Of a stretch of DNA of 64,000 nt, positions 10,286-62,213 are shown piece after piece (position 1 is the stretch's first letter; the number at the start of each line of letters is the position of its first letter). The translations under genes were made by a program, and so were the position numbers. The notes beneath the pieces were generated by a model. That model worked only from the letters and a program-made list of their open reading frames with translations, was not told the origin of the DNA and searched no databases. Source of the DNA: Synergistota bacterium (GTDB lineage: Bacteria; Synergistota; GBS-1); contig JAGHDO010000033.1 in assembly GCA_021159885.1 (NCBI GenBank), positions 7,370 through 71,369 of the forward strand, given 5' to 3'.

Positions 10286-11772
10286 TTAATTCTCTATCGT
10301 TATCCTCCAAGGCGTTTCTTCTCGGTATCTCATATAAATCCCTAAGTCAAGAATCGATTCCCAAGCTTTTATTGAAAAAACTTTTTTCCCCAAGCAGCAT
10401 ATTCCTAATCCTATTTTTTCATCGCCTCGAGATATCAGAGCTTCAAGCCAAGCATTTTTAACTCCATCACTTCTTATACCAATCCCTGAAGCCTTTTTTA
10501 TTATTCTTAGTCTCTTAGAAATCTCAGAAAGAGAAAGAAAGTCTTCCCTCTCAAAGGGGGTAAAAGGCTTAGGAACAAAGGGAGTTACGGTAGCTATGAC
10601 CTCCAATCCTCGAAAACGATCTCTCAAACTTCGAATCATTAAGCCTATCTTTTCAGCATTGGCAGGGCTCTCTTCAGGCAAACCGATCATAAAATAAAGC
10701 TTGAGTCTCCTAAATCCATGCTTATATATCATGGATATTTTTTCCTCAAGCAAGTCATTTGAAAAATCTTTACCTATACTCCGTCTTAACTCCTCATCTG
10801 CCGTTTCAGGAGCAAGTGTAATGGTCCTCTGACCACTCATATTAAGCAAATCCAAGAGTTTTTCGTTTATGCCTTCCACCCTGAACGAACCGAACGAAAC
10901 CCTTCTATTTTCCTTAAGTAAAAAATCAACAAGGTGATCAAAGTAGGGATAGTCAGTGGCAACGGGGCTCACCAAACCAAGCTTCAAATCCGGCGATAAT
11001 TTATCAATAAACGCACATATATTGTTAAGCGATCTAAACCTCACTGGTTTATAGCACTGCCTCACAGGACAAAAAAACAGTTCCTTTTACACCCCCTGTT
11101 AAGCTCTATAAGTAGCGCTCCCCCAAATTCGTTTAAAGAAGTATAGAGAGGAGCTCCCGAGGAGTAGACGTCTAATTCCTCTATCCATCTTCGGCGTGTA
11201 CGTTCTTTAATACCTGGAACGAGAACTCCCTCTATGCTTGAAAGTTCTTCAAGCAGCTTTCTCTTCCCACCTTTAGGAGAGGATAAAAATATATCGGCTA
11301 TCTCCTTTAAGCTTTCCTCTGCTTCACCACAAACTATAAAATCCGCTATAGGAAAGAGAGGTAATGGATTAAGAGAAGCGAAAGCTCCACCTACCCCCAC
11401 CAGTGGATCCTCTTCTCTCCTCTCTTTCCGTAGAGGAGAAATTCCTCCCTCTTTTAACATAGCTACAAGATTGGGTAAATCCAGCTCATATGAAAGGGAA
11501 AACGCTAAAACATCAAACTCAAGAAGGGCTCTCCCCTCCTCAAAGGAGAGAGGGGGAAAGCCCTTCCACTTAAAAAACCTTGACACAAAGATACTCCCTA
11601 TTTCACTTAAAATTCTGTATACAAATAGGAAACCCAAGTTTGAAATACCAACACTATAAGCATTAGGGTAAATTAAAGCCCATTTAATCTTACCCTGTGG
11701 CTTCCAGAAGGAATCAAGCCATCTCTCTTCCCTTTTATATTTAAGAACCTCTTTCCTCCATTCCCAGAGCAT
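10286..11772 (-). CDS. B12-binding-domain/radical SAM protein, disrupted: two ORFs (11062..11772 and 10286..11065) join with a +1 frameshift at an A7/T7 homopolymer inside the CxxxCxxC motif
   Basis: The upstream ORF ends ...NRGCKRNCFFVL*. Adding one T to the T7 run (plus-strand A7 at 11071-11077) gives ...GCKRNCFFCPVRQCYKPVRF..., restoring a canonical radical-SAM CxxxCxxC and reading straight into the downstream ORF. The N-terminal ALIYPNAYSVGISNLGFLFVY segment is typical of B12-binding-like rSAM N-domains. Confidence 0.7.
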
Positions 11773-12869
11773 TATCTAAGATTTATATCAGCAGATGATC
11801 CACTTCCCTCTCTCCTTCTCCTGAGATACGGCGGGATATCTATATCTTCAGAGTCTATAATAGGTCCAAAACTCTCTATATCTATGGGCGCTCTCGTTCT
11901 CTTGGGTTTAGAGTCAAAACCTGTAGCTATAACCGTTATCATAACTTCATCGTTCATGTCCTCTTTTATCACGGCTCCAAAGATTATGTTAGCATCTTTA
12001 TCAGCTACTTTGGTTATAAGATCAGCAGCATCGTGAACTTCCTTAAGGGTTAGATCAACCCCCCCAGAGATATTGAGAAGTATCCCCTTGGCCCCTTCTA
12101 TTGAACTTTCAAGCAATGGACTTGAGATAGCAGCCTTAGCAGCTTCTAAAGCTCTACTTTCTCCCTTTCCATAGCCAACACCCATAAGGGCAGAACCGGC
12201 TTCCTTCATTATCGCTTCAACATCAGCAAAATCAACGTTTATCAAACCAGGAATAGTTATAAGATCAGATATCCCTTGAACTCCCTGTCTTAAAACATCA
12301 TCAGCCATTCTGAAAGCCTCAAGAAGAGGAGTATTTTTGTCAGCAACATCGAGAAGCTTATCATTAGGTATAACAATAAGTGCATCAACCTTTTCACGAA
12401 GAAGATTAATTCCCTCCTCTGCCTGAAGCATTCTCTTACGTCCCTCAAAAAGGAAAGGTTTAGTAACTACCCCTACCGTTAATACACCGAGCTCTTTAGC
12501 CACCTCCGCTATTATAGGAGAAGCTCCTGTTCCGGTTCCCCCTCCCATGCCGGCAGTTATAAAGACCATATCCGCTCCCTTAAGAACCTCAGCTATCTTA
12601 TCCCTATCCTCCTCCGCAGCTTTCTTGCCTATCTCTGGATTTGCTCCTGCTCCGAGCCCTCTCGTAAGCTTGTCTCCTATCTGGAGCTTCACCGGAGCCT
12701 TGGAAAGATTCAGAGCCTGAAGATCGGTATTTACAGCTATAAATTTAACACCATTAAGCCCCGCTTCTATCATTCTGTTTAAAGCGTTATTTCCTCCTCC
12801 TCCCACCCCTATAACTCGTATTTCCGCACCAATTCTCCTATTCTCCTCGTCCTTAAGTATTTCTATCAT
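11772..12869 (-). CDS. ftsZ: Cell division GTPase FtsZ
   Basis: GGGTGTG tubulin signature; full-length FtsZ. Confidence 0.95.
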
Positions 12870-27600: not shown

Positions 27601-27611
27601 TGGGTAAAAAA

Positions 27612-27971
27612 ATATGGGGCGGAAGCAACCCGTAAGCCGAGTTCTGTTTATAGGTAGCCATCTATCTGGGGAGCGGATTGCTCCACTCCTCAAGCGACCT
27701 ACCCGAGGGAGAGGCGAGCAACCCCTTATCCCTCCTATTTGGTCTTGCTCCGGATGGGGTTTGCCAAGCCTATCAGGTCGCCCTGATAGCTGGTGGGCTC
27801 TTACCCCACCTTTTCACCCTTACCCCGCTTCTCAGCGAGGCGGTCCGTTTTCTGTGGCACTTTCCTTGGGGTCACCCCCACTGGGTGTTACCCAGCATCC
27901 CGCTCTGTGGAGCTCGGACTTTCCTCAGGGGAGTGAGGTCTCCCCCGCGGCTACCCAGTTGCTTCCACCCC
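27612..27971 (-). ncRNA. rnpB: RNase P RNA, bacterial type A (M1 RNA)
   Basis: The minus-strand reads GGGGUGGAAGCAACUGGGUAGCC...GAGGAAAGUCCGAGCUCCACAGAGC...AGGGUGAAAAGGUGGGGUAAGAGCCCACCAG...AUCCGGAGCAAGACCAAAUAGG...ACAGAACUCGGCUUACGGGUUGCUUCCGCCCC. P4 and the other universally conserved blocks are present. The P1 helix forms between the two ends, and a U7 run follows the 3' end. Confidence 0.92.
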
Positions 27972-27994
27972 ATGCTTTCAAGGTTCCATTAAAA

Positions 27995-28023
27995 TTGTAT
28001 ATCTCCAAGGGGCCGACTTGCAA
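27995..28023 (-). promoter_or_regulatory. Candidate rnpB promoter (-35 TTGCAA, 17-nt spacer, -10 TACAAT)
   Basis: The minus-strand reads cccTTGCAAgtcggccccttggagataTACAATtttaatgg, about 20 nt upstream of the P1 5' strand. Confidence 0.4.
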
Positions 28024-28043
28024 GGGACACCTGTCCCCATCTA

Positions 28044-28829
28044 TCAGGAGCTTATTTTCCTGGATATACTGCCCAAAACGGCCTTTTGAATCCCGATGAC
28101 CTTCTTTATTCCCTTCCATGCTAATTCAAGAAGCTCATCAAGATCCCTCTTCGAAAACGGTTTGTGCTCTGCACACCCCTGTATCTCTATATACTCGCTT
28201 CTATCATTCATGACCACATTTAAGTCCACATCAGCCTTAAAATCTTCATCGAAGCAGAGATCCAAAAGCTTCACTCCATCGACTATTCCTACACTCACCG
28301 CTGCAACAAAAGAATTCACGGGAAAGTCCTCTATAATTCCTTCCTCATAAAGCTTGTATATAGCTTCAACCAGAGCTACAAAGCCTCCAGTTATAGCAGC
28401 AGTTCTCGTGCCACCATCCGCCTGAATGACATCACAGTCTATCCAAACCGTTCTTTCCCCAAGTTTAGAGAGATCCACTGCTGCTCTGAGAGATCTACCT
28501 ATCATTCGCTGGATCTCAAAGGACCTCCCTGCAGGTCTTCCCCTCACCATTGAATCTCGGGGAGTTCGAGTCTGCGTTGCTCTCGGAAGCATAGCGTACT
28601 CTGCAGTAACCCATCCCTGTCCTGTCCCCCTAAGGAAAGGCGGCACCTTGTCCTCCACACTCGCAGTGCATATCACCTGAGTCTTGCCCATTTCTATCCT
28701 TACTGAGCCCTCTGGATAAATTAAATAATCTCTCTCTATCCTTATGGGTCTAAGCTGATCCGGGCTTCTTCCATCGATCCTATCCAACTTAAGATCACTC
28801 CCTCGTCCTAAGCTTCCAGGAAGGCTCAA
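28044..28829 (-). CDS. rph: Ribonuclease PH. The ORF has a ~15-aa N-terminal extension; the true start is possibly a TTG near 28784.
   Basis: [40 protein letters not shown] matches the RNase PH core. Confidence 0.85.
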
Positions 28830-34654: not shown

Positions 34655-34830
34655 CTAAAAACCCCGCGGTGCCGCATGCCCGAGGTTTTGAACCCAGCCC
34701 CATCATGGTGGGTGCCCCCTCCATCGCTTCCGCGCCGGAACGCTTCCACGATGGAAGCAGAGCTCCCTTTGGTTCTGGTGTTGGCTCAAAACCCTCAAGC
34801 TTTACACACGCACACCGCAGGGATAATCTT
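34655..34830 (-). ncRNA. Unassigned GC-rich structured RNA candidate (~175 nt) in the bioY-rarA intergenic region. Possibly a 6S-like or other sRNA, or a long structured leader/terminator. The strand call is tentative.
   Basis: Sharp GC-rich island between AT-rich flanks. The two ends are complementary over ~35 nt (CCCGCGGUG...GAGGUUUUGAACC with GGCUCAAAACCCUC...CACCGCAGGG). Internal hairpins include UUCCG-CGC-CGGAA and GCUUCC-ACGAU-GGAAGC. The minus-strand version ends in GGCACCGCGGGGUUUUUAGUUU. Confidence 0.4.
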
Positions 34831-60026: not shown

Positions 60027-60505
60027 GTAAAAGCAGAAAAATTGCACTCTTTTCAATTTATAGCGCGCTTGTGTGCGTTGCAACATTCATACACGTTCCA
60101 GTTCCAGGATTTAGGATCTACTTTAACCTCGGTGAGGGAGCGATATATACCATAGCCATCCTTTTTGGCGCCTTTGCAGGGGGAATAGCTGGTGGGCTGG
60201 GATCGGCATTAGCAGATCTTCTTTTAGGTTATCCTCTTTGGGCACCGTTTACCCTTATAATCAAGGGGACCGAGGGATTCATCGTTGGAAAGCTGGCACG
60301 CCATAATAAACCTCTTGCCTTAACCATTGGTGCGGCTATAATGATAAGCGGATACGCTATCTCCGCAGGTCTCCTTTACGGATGGGGAGCTGCTCCCGTG
60401 GAAGCGATTACCGATATAACCCAATGCTCGGTTGGGGTTCTCATAGCTGTCCCGCTGGTCAGAGTGCTCCAAAAGAGCGTTATTGAAAAGGTCGAGAAAA
60501 GTTAA
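60023..60505 (+). CDS. Small polytopic membrane protein, ECF-transporter S-component-like (ThiW/QueT-like)
   Basis: 160 aa, ~5 TM helices, Gly-rich helix GGIAGGLGSALADLLLG; translationally coupled to the MFS gene. Confidence 0.4.
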   Translation: MSKSRKIALFSIYSALVCVATFIHVPVPGFRIYFNLGEGAIYTIAILFGAFAGGIAGGLGSALADLLLGYPLWAPFTLIIKGTEGFIVGKLARHNKPLALTIGAAIMISGYAISAGLLYGWGAAPVEAITDITQCSVGVLIAVPLVRVLQKSVIEKVEKS

Positions 60506-62213
60506 GATTCATCTATTAAAACCCCAACAACCTTATGCCCATCAAGATAAGCGGAGAATATTCCCTCATATATCCGGAGAGAGGGATGTTCTCCGCGCTT
60601 ATATTCATGCGAATCAAACCAGGTTCTGTTAAAGATGTTTCCCTCCATACCCACAAATATAGGTAAATATAGTATTCCATCGAGCTCAAGATCAGCAAAA
60701 AAGTGCGTACCATATGAAAGCTCAGGCGTAAAACCCTTTTCCATCACCCCTATCTCAACTATCATGCCACAGTTTGATACCTCGCTGTATTCGACAGGGA
60801 CTCCTTGCCGGGGGTTGGAAGTCCCCCACCTCCCTGGACCTATGAGAATAAACTTCTCACCCTCAAGAGCTTTATTTATCCTCCCTATTTCACGCGCTAC
60901 CTTATGTGGATCGAATTTTTCCACGTACATCCAGGGATCGACGTAAACCAAGTAGCGAACTTTTTCTACCACACCATTAGTCAGCATTCTATTTCCCCGA
61001 AGTATAAGCCTCTCCTCAGGTATATTTTTAGGCACCGTGACCGGCCTATGGGATTCATAGCTCGAAAGAGGACGAAGCTGAACCAGCGCAAAAAAGCTTT
61101 CTACGGGCTCAGATGCAAACTCAACATCAACGGGGATACCCATTTCTTTCTCAAAGAGCTTGAAGAGAAAGCCCATAAGCTCGAAAAACTCCGGATGAGT
61201 GCTTGGGAAACCGTCAAAAGTGAAAATTATCTTGCCCTCCTTATGGGACGAATAGGGTGTTATCATATCCTCCGAATAAATGCTTGCAAGCCTGCTAAAA
61301 TTTCTATGATACTTTATCAAATCCTTCCTCGAGTTTATATTATAGGATTTAAATCCTCCACCCTCGAGATCAAGTAAATCAAAGGTCTCCTGAGAATATC
61401 TCATTATTTCAGTTGGATCATTTCCCTCAGGCCTCAAGCTTAGGTTAGTCAGAGAAAATATACGAGCGTAATTTCTACCCGTACATCTCGTACCTAACCC
61501 AAAGACGACCCTAACCATCCCATCTTCAACCCTAATCCTTTCTGTCCACCTGCGATAATTTCTCGAAAATCCCACTCCAGCTATCTCTGGATAGAACTCA
61601 CCTCCCCGTCTCTTTCCAATCAGCTGTTGAACTATTATCCCCATGCTCTCCCCTTCTAAGGAGTGCTTCTTCCTATATTCGAGAGCTACAGGACCATATG
61701 TGCTTGCGTAAACTTTCTTTATAGCACAGAGAAGCTCCCTTACTCTCTCTTCAAGGTCTCCCCTATTAGACACGAAGAGCGTCAGATATTTTCCCGCAAA
61801 GGAGTACTTTATACTATCCTCAAGAAGCGAGGAAGATCTAACCGCGAGAGGATAATCCATCTCGCAAAGCCATCTTCTCAAATCTTCTATCACTGCTTCA
61901 GGAAAAGAAGCATTTAAAAAGCCTTCTTTATATCCTCCCAGTTACCCGTGAAAATAACATCAGCAAGATCGTTTCCTTCCATAAATTCGTCGAAGATCTC
62001 CGTCGTTATAAACCGGCTCGGAGGTATATAAATGGGCCATGGAGGGATCCCCTCCATCCCCTCAAGAACTCTCTTAGCGAAAATAAGTCCCTTAGCCTTA
62101 CCTCCAACGCTTCCCTCGCCTATCAGATGACTCTTATCCTTAACGAGCTCCTTTGCATTTAAGGATAGATACCTTCGTAGCTTGATATTGCTTAGCAAAC
62201 TATCCCCCCTCAA
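60502..62213 (-). CDS. PEP-utilising-enzyme nucleotide-binding (PPDK_N) domain protein lacking the phospho-His and PEP-binding domains; split into 61914..62213 and 60502..61893 by a frameshift near an A5 run (61916-61920)
   Basis: The upstream piece carries GGKAKGL (GGKGANL-like). The downstream piece carries [26 protein letters not shown] (the VAVRSSATAEDLP..SFAGQ motif). One extra base in the T/A run reads ...[17 protein letters not shown]... continuously. Confidence 0.7.

What the first reader, a model, noticed from the sequence alone, without database searches (positions are those of the whole stretch)
11060..11080. Radical-SAM gene broken exactly inside its CxxxCxxC cluster at an A7 homopolymer
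The N-terminal ORF ends ...GCKRNCFFVL*. One extra base in the homopolymer yields GCKRNCFFCPVRQCYKPVRF, which is a textbook CxxxCxxC motif, and runs in frame into the downstream ORF. Total length would be ~495 aa, with a B12-binding-like N-domain (ALIYPNAYSVGISNLGFLFVY).

This is one of two homopolymer-linked frameshifts in this window (see 61916-61920).
- If both are sequencing errors, they suggest a homopolymer-error-prone assembly such as a long-read or metagenome-assembled genome.
- If both are real, they could be decay or phase-variable slippage sites.

The gene's position immediately downstream of ftsZ, at the end of the dcw cluster, is also unusual.
Basis: seen in the sequence. Interest (0 to 1): 0.5.

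Follow-up and report, generated by a model that had tools for sequence, protein, structure and literature searches.

The report
Conserved programmed frameshift in radical-SAM gene
A radical-SAM enzyme gene next to ftsZ is interrupted by a one-base shortfall in a run of seven Ts; three related species keep exactly the same break and both halves stay under strong selection, so it is most likely read by a deliberate one-base ribosome slip, not an error or a dead gene.

Summary
On the minus strand a 236-aa ORF (11062-11772) ends ...GCKRNCFFVL* just after a T7 run (A7 on +, 11071-11077). A -1 shift gives a 495-aa Radical_SAM_N2 + Radical_SAM protein with CKRNCFFC.

It is not a sequencing error. The same T7, the same stop two codons later and the same open -1 frame occur in three species-level lineages (75-86% aa identity). 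I read them in 11 further contigs from NCBI, ENA, JGI and Logan assemblies. More distant intact orthologues have T8 or CT6.

It is not decaying: dN/dS is 0.05-0.12 in both halves, with synonymous sites near saturation. It is not phase-variable: every copy is T7.

The run is a perfect U_UUU_UUU heptamer in the 0 frame. Twelve nucleotides upstream, all three T7 lineages, but no intact orthologue, carry AGGGGGUG. Its predicted anti-Shine-Dalgarno pairing falls in the top 0.04% of coding positions in the window. The lowest synonymous variation in the gene lies at this site.

Best reading: a conserved, dnaX-like, SD-stimulated -1 ribosomal frameshift that creates the invariant third cluster cysteine.

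Rivals: transcriptional slippage, or a split two-subunit enzyme. There are no expression data.

The window's second frameshift (61916-61920) is also real.

The parts
11062..11772 (-). 0-frame ORF: 236 aa plus a UGA stop. It encodes the N-terminal Radical_SAM_N2 (B12-binding-like) domain, the linker, the first core strand and the first two cluster cysteines (C228, C232). It ends ...CFFVL*.
   Evidence: NCBI annotates part of it as hypothetical protein MCD6362976.1 (J7M13_03110).
11071..11077 (-). U7 run, which is the slippery heptamer U_UUU_UUU in the 0 frame (UG[U UUU UUU] GUC). After a -1 slip of the two tRNA-Phe, the next codon is UGU, the invariant Cys235.
   Evidence: T7 sits at the identical offset (695) in L010 and L014-L024. 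Intact orthologues have T8 (L006, L009, L011) or CT6 (L001, L012).
11090..11097 (-). Shine-Dalgarno-like AGGGGGUG (codons R226-G227-C228), 12 nt 5' of the heptamer. Proposed 5' stimulator of the -1 shift.
   Evidence: Predicted duplex with CACCUCCU is -12.9 kcal/mol in the window and -12.6 and -12.8 in lineages B and C, which is the top 0.04% of 7252 coding positions in the window. Intact orthologues give -6.2 to -7.0 (6th-12th percentile). None of 61 in-frame X_XXY_YYZ heptamers in intact window genes combines a U-run with such an element.
11062..11064 (-). 0-frame UGA stop, two codons after the heptamer. It overlaps GUG (V237 of the -1 frame, 11063-11065), giving GUGA.
   Evidence: It is at the same position in all T7 lineages.
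10286..11071 (-). -1 frame continuation: Cys235 to Asn495 plus the stop. It encodes the rest of the radical-SAM core and the C-terminal domain.
   Evidence: dN/dS is 0.09-0.12 between lineages. AlphaFold models the joined 495-aa chain at mean pLDDT 95.4 and pTM 0.93. NCBI annotates part of it as MCD6362975.1 (J7M13_03105).
11770..11774 (-). TAATG: the ftsZ stop codon and the rSAM start codon overlap by one base (translational coupling to ftsZ).
   Evidence: The same 1-nt overlap appears in the gene calls of orthologous loci.

Best explanation
The gene is a functional radical-SAM enzyme gene whose full-length product (495 aa) is made by a conserved programmed -1 ribosomal frameshift.

Proposed mechanism (inferred):
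- Ribosomes translating the 0 frame reach UG-U_UUU_UUU-G with tRNA-Phe in both the P and A sites.
- Both tRNAs re-pair one base back on the U-run.
- The next codon read is UGU, the invariant third cysteine of CxxxCxxC. Translation then continues to the normal C-terminus.
- The slip is promoted by a strong Shine-Dalgarno-like element (AGGGGGUG) 12 nt upstream pairing with the 16S rRNA tail, as in E. coli dnaX.
- Ribosomes that do not slip stop two codons later and release a 236-aa N-domain protein.

Proposed origin (inferred): loss of one T from an ancestral T8 (TGT TTT TTT TGT, still present in intact relatives) in the common ancestor of three species-level lineages. T7 has been kept since. 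A one-base re-insertion in a homopolymer is an easy mutation, so this persistence implies that the T7 state is selected. One possible reason is to set a low, fixed level of enzyme from a gene translationally coupled to ftsZ.

Shown here: the break is real and conserved, both halves are under selection, a slippery heptamer is present, the SD-like element is specific to the T7 lineages, and synonymous variation is locally suppressed.

Inferred, not shown: that the shift happens, that it happens on the ribosome, and how efficient it is.
For: 1. The break is real and old. T7 at the same offset, UGA two codons later and an open -1 frame are found in the window and in 11 further contigs. Lineage B is L021-L024 (84% nt, 86% aa). 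Lineage C is L010 and L014-L020 (72% nt, 75% aa). Sources are NCBI MAGs, ENA (MEGAHIT-style k141 contig), JGI 3300026512 and Logan runs. Within-lineage SNPs of 0.2-0.3% show distinct populations. A second lineage-A strain has a C-ORF differing by one residue (P0247).

2. The gene is functional. dN/dS is 0.05-0.07 (N half) and 0.09-0.12 (C half) in all three pairs, with pS of 0.48-0.73.

3. The -1 product restores C235. C228, C232, F234 and C235 are invariant in 67 family members. The joined chain folds as one two-domain rSAM enzyme (pLDDT 95.4). Foldseek matches MgmA, AprD4, MiaB and TsrM.

4. The run is U_UUU_UUU in X_XXY_YYZ register.

5. The SD-like element lies 12 nt upstream. It gives -12.6 to -12.9 kcal/mol in all three T7 lineages (top 0.04% of the background) against -6.2 to -7.0 in intact orthologues. 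No comparable combination exists among 61 in-frame heptamers in intact genes.

6. The lowest synonymous variation in the gene lies at the site.
- Window vs L010: 2 of 21 identical-residue codons differ, against 50% gene-wide (P = 1e-4, rank 2 of 340).
- Control pairs of intact orthologues at similar divergence show no dip: 7/20 and 14/18.
- The three-way minimum is also at codons 223-248 (P = 0.008).

7. The only substitution between the run and the stop (CCT/CCC) is synonymous in the -1 frame (Pro236) but Leu/Pro in the 0 frame.

8. This genome avoids TTTTTT for Phe-Phe: 2 of 32 against about 13.5 expected, P = 7e-6. The run is nevertheless frozen here.

9. The case meets the comparative criterion of Baranov et al. 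[quoted passage not shown]
Against: - There is no expression evidence of any kind: no reads, transcripts or peptides.
- No convincing 3' stimulatory hairpin or pseudoknot was found. Folding z-scores are +0.7 to +0.9. Only a weak 6-bp hairpin lies 19 nt downstream, and covariation is negligible.
- In E. coli, U_UUU_UUU is reported to be much less shift-prone than A_AAA_AAG (review PMC5009743).
- The anti-SD sequence of this lineage was assumed canonical and not checked. No 16S rRNA gene was detected in the window.
- With lineage B added, the synonymous-site signal weakens (7/21, P = 0.008).
- Some of the 11 contigs may derive from the same sequencing project (SRR329380xx and the GCA_0539xxxxx MAGs), so they are fewer than 11 fully independent observations.
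- GUGA (stop overlapping a GUG) would also suit termination-reinitiation.
Confidence: 0.6

Rival explanations
1. Programmed transcriptional slippage. RNA polymerase occasionally adds one U while copying the A7 template run. A fraction of mRNAs then carries U8 and encodes the full-length enzyme by standard translation.
For: A homopolymeric T run is the classic slippage substrate. Both mechanisms yield the same protein. The organisms are related to lineages recovered from hot-spring enrichments (GBS 77 C sample name), where weak rU:dA hybrids could slip more readily (inference). TTTTTT is strongly avoided in this genome, and that is also expected if RNAP slips on T runs. UUUUUUU under-representation in enterobacteria has been attributed partly to transcriptional slippage (PMC4066793).
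Against: Known utilised cases use longer runs: A with n > 7 and T with n > 8 (PMC3711429), and 9-mers were the search unit in PMC1088944. Slippage does not explain a lineage-specific SD-like element at the dnaX-type distance. No terminator-like hairpin lies directly 5' of the run. The window's second real frameshift sits on only T5, too short for RNAP slippage but compatible with tRNA-Phe P-site slippage.
Confidence: 0.15
2. A genuinely split enzyme. The two ORFs are translated as separate polypeptides, with the downstream one started by termination-reinitiation at the GUGA overlap. They assemble into a heterodimeric radical-SAM enzyme. This is how NCBI annotates them (two hypothetical proteins).
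For: The 0-frame stop UGA overlaps a GUG in all three lineages. GTG is a minority Val codon (20%). Both halves are under purifying selection, which this model also predicts. Gene callers consistently + 259/260 aa. C240 is conserved in the clade and could in principle replace the third ligand.
Against: Neither polypeptide would contain C235, which is invariant with C228, C232 and F234 in 67 family members. The break is inside the cluster loop of a single compact fold, not at the domain boundary. There is no reason to freeze a T7 run that the genome otherwise avoids, nor to keep the UGU-CCN codons that are read only in the -1 frame. There is no SD in front of the GUG: the upstream sequence is the U-run. 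GTGAGG is ancestral, since it is also present in the intact GBS-1 orthologue. The strong SD-like element is 31 nt from the GUG, too far for initiation.
Confidence: 0.12
3. Recent or parallel pseudogenisation. T8 is a mutational hot spot and lost a base, and the gene is dying.
For: Homopolymers are indel hot spots. Intact relatives carry T8. The gene is of unknown function and could be dispensable.
Against: All three lineages share T7, so a single old event is most parsimonious. Since then synonymous sites have reached pS of 0.5-0.7, while dN/dS stayed at 0.05-0.12 in both halves and no stop or further indel appeared in about 260 downstream codons. Three independent recent losses that each reached fixation in every sampled population is very unlikely.
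Confidence: 0.04
4. Phase-variable contingency locus. The tract switches between T7 (OFF) and T8 (ON) by replication slippage, and the assemblies happen to show OFF.
For: T7/T8 is at the lower edge of tract lengths used for phase variation. Related species show T8. Consensus assemblies hide minority alleles.
Against: Every copy read (the window plus 11 further contigs, three species, several samples and haplotypes) is T7 and none is T8. The flanking synonymous constraint and the SD-like element are not explained. It is a cytoplasmic enzyme in the division-gene cluster, not a surface or restriction-modification function (PMC3711429, for the usual gene classes).
Confidence: 0.03
5. Sequencing or assembly error. 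The true sequence is T8 and the gene is ordinary.
For: Homopolymer undercalling is a common artefact. The window has a second homopolymer-linked frameshift. One related assembly (L002, Ga0065718) is visibly error-prone.
Against: The same T7 is found in 11 other contigs from different centres and assemblers. Logan assemblies give T8 for L011 and T7 for lineages B and C, so the pipeline can call T8. In the window, the A8 run and all the other 7-mers that fall within ORFs leave those ORFs unbroken, and only 2 of about 65 genes are frameshifted. An error cannot create the lineage-specific SD-like element or the synonymous-site dip.
Confidence: 0.01

Closest known systems
E. coli dnaX programmed -1 ribosomal frameshift (A_AAA_AAG with a 5' SD-like stimulator and a 3' hairpin)
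   Same: It is a chromosomal, non-mobile bacterial gene. It has a homopolymeric X_XXY_YYZ heptamer and an SD-like element about 10-14 nt upstream (12 nt here). The 0-frame and shifted products share an N-terminal domain. A stop follows closely in one of the two frames.
   Different: The heptamer is U_UUU_UUU (tRNA-Phe), not A_AAA_AAG (tRNA-Lys). No 3' hairpin was found. Here the shifted product is the long, full-length enzyme and the unshifted one is truncated, which is the reverse of dnaX. The shift is needed to create a catalytic residue (C235). dnaX details are from my own knowledge and the review PMC5009743.
Corrective or compensatory frameshifting of conserved indels (for example mitochondrial nad3 in birds and turtles; poly(A) slippage rescuing endosymbiont genes)
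   Same: A one-base indel relative to intact homologues is retained over long evolutionary time while the downstream frame stays under selection. The non-shifted product may be useless (PMC5009743).
   Different: Those cases are in mitochondria or reduced endosymbionts with weak selection. They use +1 shifts or runs of 9 or more A. This one is in bacterial lineages known only from metagenome assemblies, assumed free-living, uses -1 on U7, and carries an apparently evolved 5' stimulator.
Programmed transcriptional realignment (Thermus thermophilus dnaX A9; Shigella mxiE T9; IS elements)
   Same: A homopolymeric A/T run at the frame junction. The comparative criterion of conserved ORF organisation is met (PMC1088944).
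   Different: The run is only 7 nt. Utilised cases have A with n > 7 and T with n > 8 (PMC3711429). The SD-like element has no role in transcription.
TIGR03960 family / Radical_SAM_N2 (PF19864) B12-binding-domain radical SAM proteins of unknown function
   Same: Same domain order (N-terminal Rossmann-like domain, then the rSAM core). TIGR03960 is the best NCBIfam hit (E 3e-60). PF19864 and PF04055 are above their cut-offs. The fold resembles class B and MTTase-type rSAM enzymes.
   Different: It scores 204 bits against the 462-bit TIGR03960 cut-off and is shorter (495 aa against a 605-position model). It forms its own clade of seven lineages read here, all encoded directly after ftsZ. No solved structure is detectable by sequence, and no literature was found on the family.

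Membership tests
Radical SAM superfamily (PF04055) | CxxxCxxC motif ligating the [4Fe-4S] cluster | tested here: met
   CKRNCFFC is present only in the -1-shifted product. The 0-frame ORF has only C228 and C232. C228, C232 and C235 are invariant in 67 homologues.
Radical SAM superfamily (PF04055) | Profile match above the Pfam gathering score, and the partial TIM-barrel fold | tested here: met
   52.5 bits against a cut-off of 29.5. The AlphaFold model has pLDDT 95.4. Foldseek gives probability 1.0 to MgmA, AprD4, MiaB and TsrM at TM about 0.5-0.57.
TIGR03960 family B12-binding radical SAM protein | Whole-protein score at or above the NCBIfam cut-off (462.3 bits) | tested here: not met
   204.4 bits, in two stretches, covering model positions 222-537 of 605. 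It is related to the family but is not a member by the curated threshold.
Cobalamin-dependent (class B) radical SAM enzymes | N-terminal cobalamin-binding Rossmann domain | tested here: inconclusive
   PF02310 scores 20.6 bits, below its 32.1 cut-off. PF19864 (Radical_SAM_N2) is clearly present. Structural neighbours include both B12-dependent enzymes (TsrM, TokK, CysS, MgmA) and B12-independent ones (MiaB, RimO, AprD4). Cobalamin-binding residues were not examined.
Programmed -1 ribosomal frameshift site (dnaX type) | Slippery heptamer X_XXY_YYZ in the 0 frame at the ORF junction | tested here: met
   UG-U_UUU_UUU-G. The slip gives Phe-Phe-Cys.
Programmed -1 ribosomal frameshift site (dnaX type) | Frame organisation and shift site conserved in non-identical homologues, with purifying selection on the trans-frame part | tested here: met
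   Three lineages at 72-84% nt identity all have T7, UGA two codons later and an open -1 frame. dN/dS of the C half is 0.09-0.12.
Programmed -1 ribosomal frameshift site (dnaX type) | 5' Shine-Dalgarno-like stimulator about 10-14 nt upstream | tested here: met
   AGGGGGUG with a 12-nt spacer gives -12.6 to -12.9 kcal/mol against CACCUCCU, the top 0.04% of the background. It is present in all T7 lineages and absent in intact orthologues. This is computational only, and the anti-SD sequence was assumed.
Programmed -1 ribosomal frameshift site (dnaX type) | 3' stimulatory hairpin or pseudoknot 5-9 nt downstream | tested here: not met
   Folding is no better than shuffles (z +0.7 to +0.9). There is only a 6-bp AU-rich hairpin 19 nt downstream, and the covariation term is -0.4 to -2.5 kcal/mol. 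There is no Rfam match. This feature is not obligatory for all bacterial sites.
Programmed -1 ribosomal frameshift site (dnaX type) | Demonstrated trans-frame protein product | not testable with these tools
   Needs proteomics or a reporter assay.
Programmed transcriptional realignment | A or T run long enough for RNAP slippage (utilised cases: A with n > 7, T with n > 8) | tested here: not met
   The run is T7 in every copy. Thresholds are from PMC3711429.
Phase-variable contingency locus (slipped-strand mispairing) | Tract-length polymorphism among strains or populations | tested here: not met
   The window and the 11 further contigs all have T7. Minority alleles within samples cannot be seen in assemblies.
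Pseudogene | Relaxed selection, with further stops or indels downstream of the lesion | tested here: not met
   dN/dS is 0.05-0.12, with no further disruption in three lineages.

The most novel reading that the evidence does not exclude
The frameshift is a selected expression device, not a tolerated scar, and it is one instance of a lineage-wide habit.

This bacterial group would use SD-stimulated -1 slippage of tRNA-Phe on U-runs in several chromosomal genes. Two real sites lie in this 64-kb window. Both require a -1 shift, both are on U-runs, and both have an SD-like element exactly 12 nt upstream.

In the rSAM gene the third Fe-S cysteine codon exists only after the slip. The cell therefore makes a fixed, low ratio of active enzyme to a stand-alone N-domain from a gene translationally coupled to the highly expressed ftsZ.
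Probability: 0.3. Interest if true: 0.75.

Novelty: new member of a known kind. Interest (0 to 1): 0.6.

Why it matters
Conserved programmed frameshifts in non-mobile bacterial genes are few; dnaX, prfB, cdd, copA and chlD are examples. Each one found has been informative about ribosome mechanics and gene regulation.

This candidate comes with natural controls. Sister lineages with T8 or CT6 lack the SD-like element. It also has a shift that builds a catalytic cysteine, and a compact cassette of about 70 nt that can be put straight into a reporter.

There are practical consequences.
- NCBI currently annotates the gene as two hypothetical proteins (MCD6362976.1 and MCD6362975.1).
- Protein databases hold only the halves, so family-level analyses miss these lineages.
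- MAG quality checks could wrongly read such sites as homopolymer errors.

It also flags an uncharacterised radical-SAM enzyme that is always encoded directly behind ftsZ in this clade.

Tried and rejected
- Exact-protein look-ups gave little. The window's N-ORF, C-ORF, RtcB and DUF711 were not on record. FtsZ was found only on a 1.7-kb ENA contig that stops before the site. The repaired protein was not accepted as a query.
- The full-length repaired query returned only intact orthologues and missed all the half-proteins. A 202-aa query centred on the break found them. The first negative result was therefore a search artefact, not evidence of absence.
- The genome-contig scan found only two intact orthologues.
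- The search for a 3' stimulatory RNA structure was negative: single-sequence folds, and RNAalifold on two and three lineages. One apparent compensatory pair (CUG/CAG to CCG/CGG) is only a 3-bp stem and was dropped.
- An upstream terminator-like hairpin for stem-loop-assisted transcriptional slippage was looked for by eye. Only 3-4 weak pairs were found, so it was rejected.
- Rfam gave nothing at the site.
- Sample and accession names were not found in the literature, and there are no papers on TIGR03960 or PF19864.
- A local recombination patch was considered as the cause of the high local identity. It was rejected because the patch still carries 2 synonymous and 2 non-synonymous differences.
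Full report
**1. The observation**

The feature lies on the minus strand. A 236-aa ORF (11062..11772) ends ...NRGCKRNCFFVL*. It ends immediately after a T7 run on the coding strand, which is A7 on the + strand at 11071..11077. The -1 frame is open from there to 10286.

Inserting one T, or slipping one base back, gives a 495-aa protein with CKRNCFFC. Its Pfam hits are Radical_SAM_N2 (E 1.3e-29) and Radical_SAM (E 8.2e-14). B12-binding is below threshold. TIGR03960 is the best NCBIfam model but is far below its cut-off (204 vs 462 bits).

Six intact orthologues (494-495 aa, 58-63% identity) align end to end. They are labelled Synergistetes/Synergistota MAGs or 'bacterium GBS-1'.

**2. Context**

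The gene start overlaps the ftsZ stop (TAATG). The order murB-ftsQ-ftsA-ftsZ-rSAM-rtcB-methylmalonyl-CoA mutase is the same in the orthologous loci that extend that far. Every locus read keeps ftsZ-rSAM or rSAM-rtcB adjacency. The position after ftsZ is therefore the norm for this clade.

**3. Is the break real?**

A metagenome scan returned a JGI contig (L010). It is 78% nt identical and colinear over 4.5 kb, and it has the same T7 at the same offset, the same stop two codons later and an open -1 frame.

A full-length protein query had missed all half-proteins. A 202-aa query centred on the break returned only halves, in three pairs:
- the window's own MAG (MCD6362976.1 and MCD6362975.1, J7M13_03110 and J7M13_03105, annotated as two hypothetical proteins);
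- lineage B (86% aa identity);
- lineage C, which is L010 (75% aa identity).

Their contigs come from NCBI GCA_053989855.1, GCA_053991435.1 and GCA_053993675.1, from ENA ERZ27262656, from JGI 3300026512 and from Logan SRR32938003/4/5/9/11. All eleven read here have T7. Within-lineage differences of 0.2-0.3% show distinct populations. A second lineage-A strain is indicated by P0247, whose C-ORF differs by one residue.

Intact, more distant orthologues carry TGT TTT TTT TGT (T8: L006, L009, L011) or TGT CTT TTT TGT (L001, L012). The Logan pipeline yields T8 for L011 and T7 for lineages B and C.

In the window, only 2 of about 65 genes are frameshifted. The A8 run and all the other 7-mers that fall within ORFs leave those ORFs unbroken. 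Sequencing error is therefore excluded for practical purposes.

**4. Is the gene alive?**

Nei-Gojobori dN/dS is 0.05-0.07 for the part before the run and 0.09-0.12 for the part after it. This holds in all three pairwise comparisons, with pS of 0.48-0.73. No further stop or indel has arisen in about 260 downstream codons in any lineage. That rules out an old pseudogene.

Three parallel, recent, fixed losses is not credible. Every copy is T7, so phase variation has no support.

**5. What restores the frame?**

In the 0 frame the run reads UG-U_UUU_UUU-G, a perfect X_XXY_YYZ heptamer. Tandem -1 re-pairing of two tRNA-Phe leaves UGU as the next codon. That codon is Cys235, and C228, C232, F234 and C235 are invariant in 67 family members. 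The joined chain is modelled as one compact two-domain rSAM enzyme (pLDDT 95.4, pTM 0.93). It resembles MgmA, AprD4, MiaB and TsrM.

Three independent signals point to a nucleotide-level element at the site.

(a) An SD-like element. Twelve nucleotides upstream, all three T7 lineages have AGGGGGUG. Its predicted duplex with CACCUCCU is -12.6 to -12.9 kcal/mol, the top 0.04% of 7252 coding positions in the window. The five intact orthologues give -6.2 to -7.0, which is unremarkable. Among 61 in-frame slippery heptamers in intact window genes, none reaches this value, and the six U-rich ones have -4.0 to +0.6.

(b) Suppressed synonymous variation. The lowest synonymous variation in the gene lies at codons 226-248. 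Between the window and L010, 2 of 21 identical-residue codons differ, against 50% gene-wide (P = 1e-4). Control pairs of intact orthologues at similar divergence show no dip (7/20 and 14/18). With three lineages the minimum stays there (7/21 vs 61.5%, P = 0.008).

(c) Avoidance of the run elsewhere. The genome avoids TTTTTT for Phe-Phe (2 of 32, P = 7e-6). Yet the run is frozen here.

In addition, the single substitution between the run and the stop is synonymous in the -1 frame and Leu/Pro in the 0 frame.

No 3' stimulatory structure was found, and no Rfam family matches.

**6. Interpretation**

The best-supported reading is a conserved, dnaX-like, SD-stimulated -1 ribosomal frameshift. It yields the full enzyme plus a 236-aa N-domain by-product or co-product.

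A one-base re-insertion into a 7-nt homopolymer is an easy mutation. T7 has persisted across near-saturated synonymous divergence, which argues that the T7 state itself is selected. A plausible but untested purpose is to set a low, fixed output from a gene translationally coupled to ftsZ.

Two rivals remain.
- Transcriptional slippage gives the same protein. But the run is shorter than in utilised cases (PMC3711429; PMC1088944), and slippage does not explain the SD-like element.
- A split two-subunit enzyme restarted at the GUGA overlap is possible. But it would lack the invariant C235, and it gives no reason to keep the U-run.

The literature notes that U_UUU_UUU is a weaker shifter than A_AAA_AAG in E. 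coli (PMC5009743). It also notes that UUUUUUU is under-represented in all frames (PMC4066793). Efficiency here is unknown.

**7. The second frameshift**

At 61916..61920 (T5) a PPDK_N-domain gene is broken: GCU UUU UAA. The repaired protein shows one continuous PPDK_N match across the break. Orthologues are intact, at 567-585 aa.

The truncated N-ORF recurs in Logan and ENA contigs, including a one-residue variant (P0248, P0337). So this frameshift is also real.

It too needs a -1 shift of tRNA-Phe on a U-run, here with a stop codon in the A site. It too has an SD-like GGGAGGA exactly 12 nt upstream (-9.9 kcal/mol, 1.2th percentile). However, that element encodes W-E-D and is also present in an intact orthologue. 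I could not test whether this break is conserved in lineages B and C.

**8. Novelty and score**

Programmed -1 frameshifting with a 5' SD-like stimulator is a known mechanism. This would be a new member of that kind, in a new gene family and an uncultured bacterial clade. It has the unusual feature that the shift creates a catalytic cysteine.

The evidence is comparative only. Interest is 0.6.

Noticed in passing
window 61916..61920 (minus strand; ORFs 61914..62213 and 60502..61941): A second real -1 frameshift, in a PPDK_N (PEP/pyruvate-binding) gene at GCU UUU UAA (T5). The repaired protein has one continuous PPDK_N match. Orthologues are intact (567-585 aa). The truncated 94-aa N-ORF recurs in Logan and ENA contigs, including a one-residue variant. 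An SD-like GGGAGGA (61933..61939) lies exactly 12 nt upstream, the same spacing as at the rSAM site. Conservation in sister lineages was not tested.
   Followed up: partly
window, all long ORFs: The Phe-Phe codon pair TTTTTT is strongly avoided: 2 of 32 against about 13.5 expected from 65% TTT usage (P = 7e-6). This suggests that U-runs are genuinely slippery in this organism.
   Followed up: partly
L006, L009, L011 (T8); L001, L012 (CT6), at the codons for C232-F-F/L-F-C235: Even the intact orthologues keep TGT YTT TTT TGT, that is, a T8 or T6 run inside the cluster motif. No lineage uses TTC or TGC at these positions. The run may matter in the whole clade, or it may be a chance codon choice.
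   Followed up: no
window 11770..11774; also L001, L012, L014, L021: The rSAM start codon overlaps the ftsZ stop by one base (TAATG). The gene always sits between ftsZ and rtcB in this clade. This implies translational coupling of an uncharacterised radical-SAM enzyme to ftsZ.
   Followed up: partly
window 11020..11068 (minus strand), and the same region in L014 and L022: A direct repeat CCNGUGAGG ... CCRGUGAGG (encoding P-V-R twice) lies just 3' of the shift site. It is conserved at synonymous positions in all three T7 lineages. No function is assigned, and it does not form a convincing hairpin.
   Followed up: partly
window 12783 (ftsZ, minus strand): An in-frame U_UUA_AAC heptamer in ftsZ is preceded by GGGAGGAGGAGG (the GGGG-motif codons). 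Its anti-SD pairing is -10.1 kcal/mol at the same spacing. It is the only other strong heptamer-plus-SD combination in the window and is probably incidental.
   Followed up: no
window 27617..27966 (-) and 34657..34826 (-): RNase P RNA class A (338 bits) and 6S RNA (78 bits). The stop-to-stop ORF 27608..28099 (+) on my gene map overlaps the RNase P RNA, so it is probably not a gene.
   Followed up: no
L002 / L008 (JGI Ga0065718_1000359): This assembly of the GBS-1 orthologous locus has ftsA, rtcB and the mutase each split in two, whereas the identical locus in L001 and L003 is intact. It is an example of a truly error-prone assembly. Its rSAM gene (CT6) is unbroken.
   Followed up: no
The search for homologous proteins, vs 47: Method note. 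The full-length repaired query returned only full-length relatives and none of the six half-proteins. A short query across the break returned only the halves. Negative results for split genes from a full-length query should not be trusted.
   Followed up: yes
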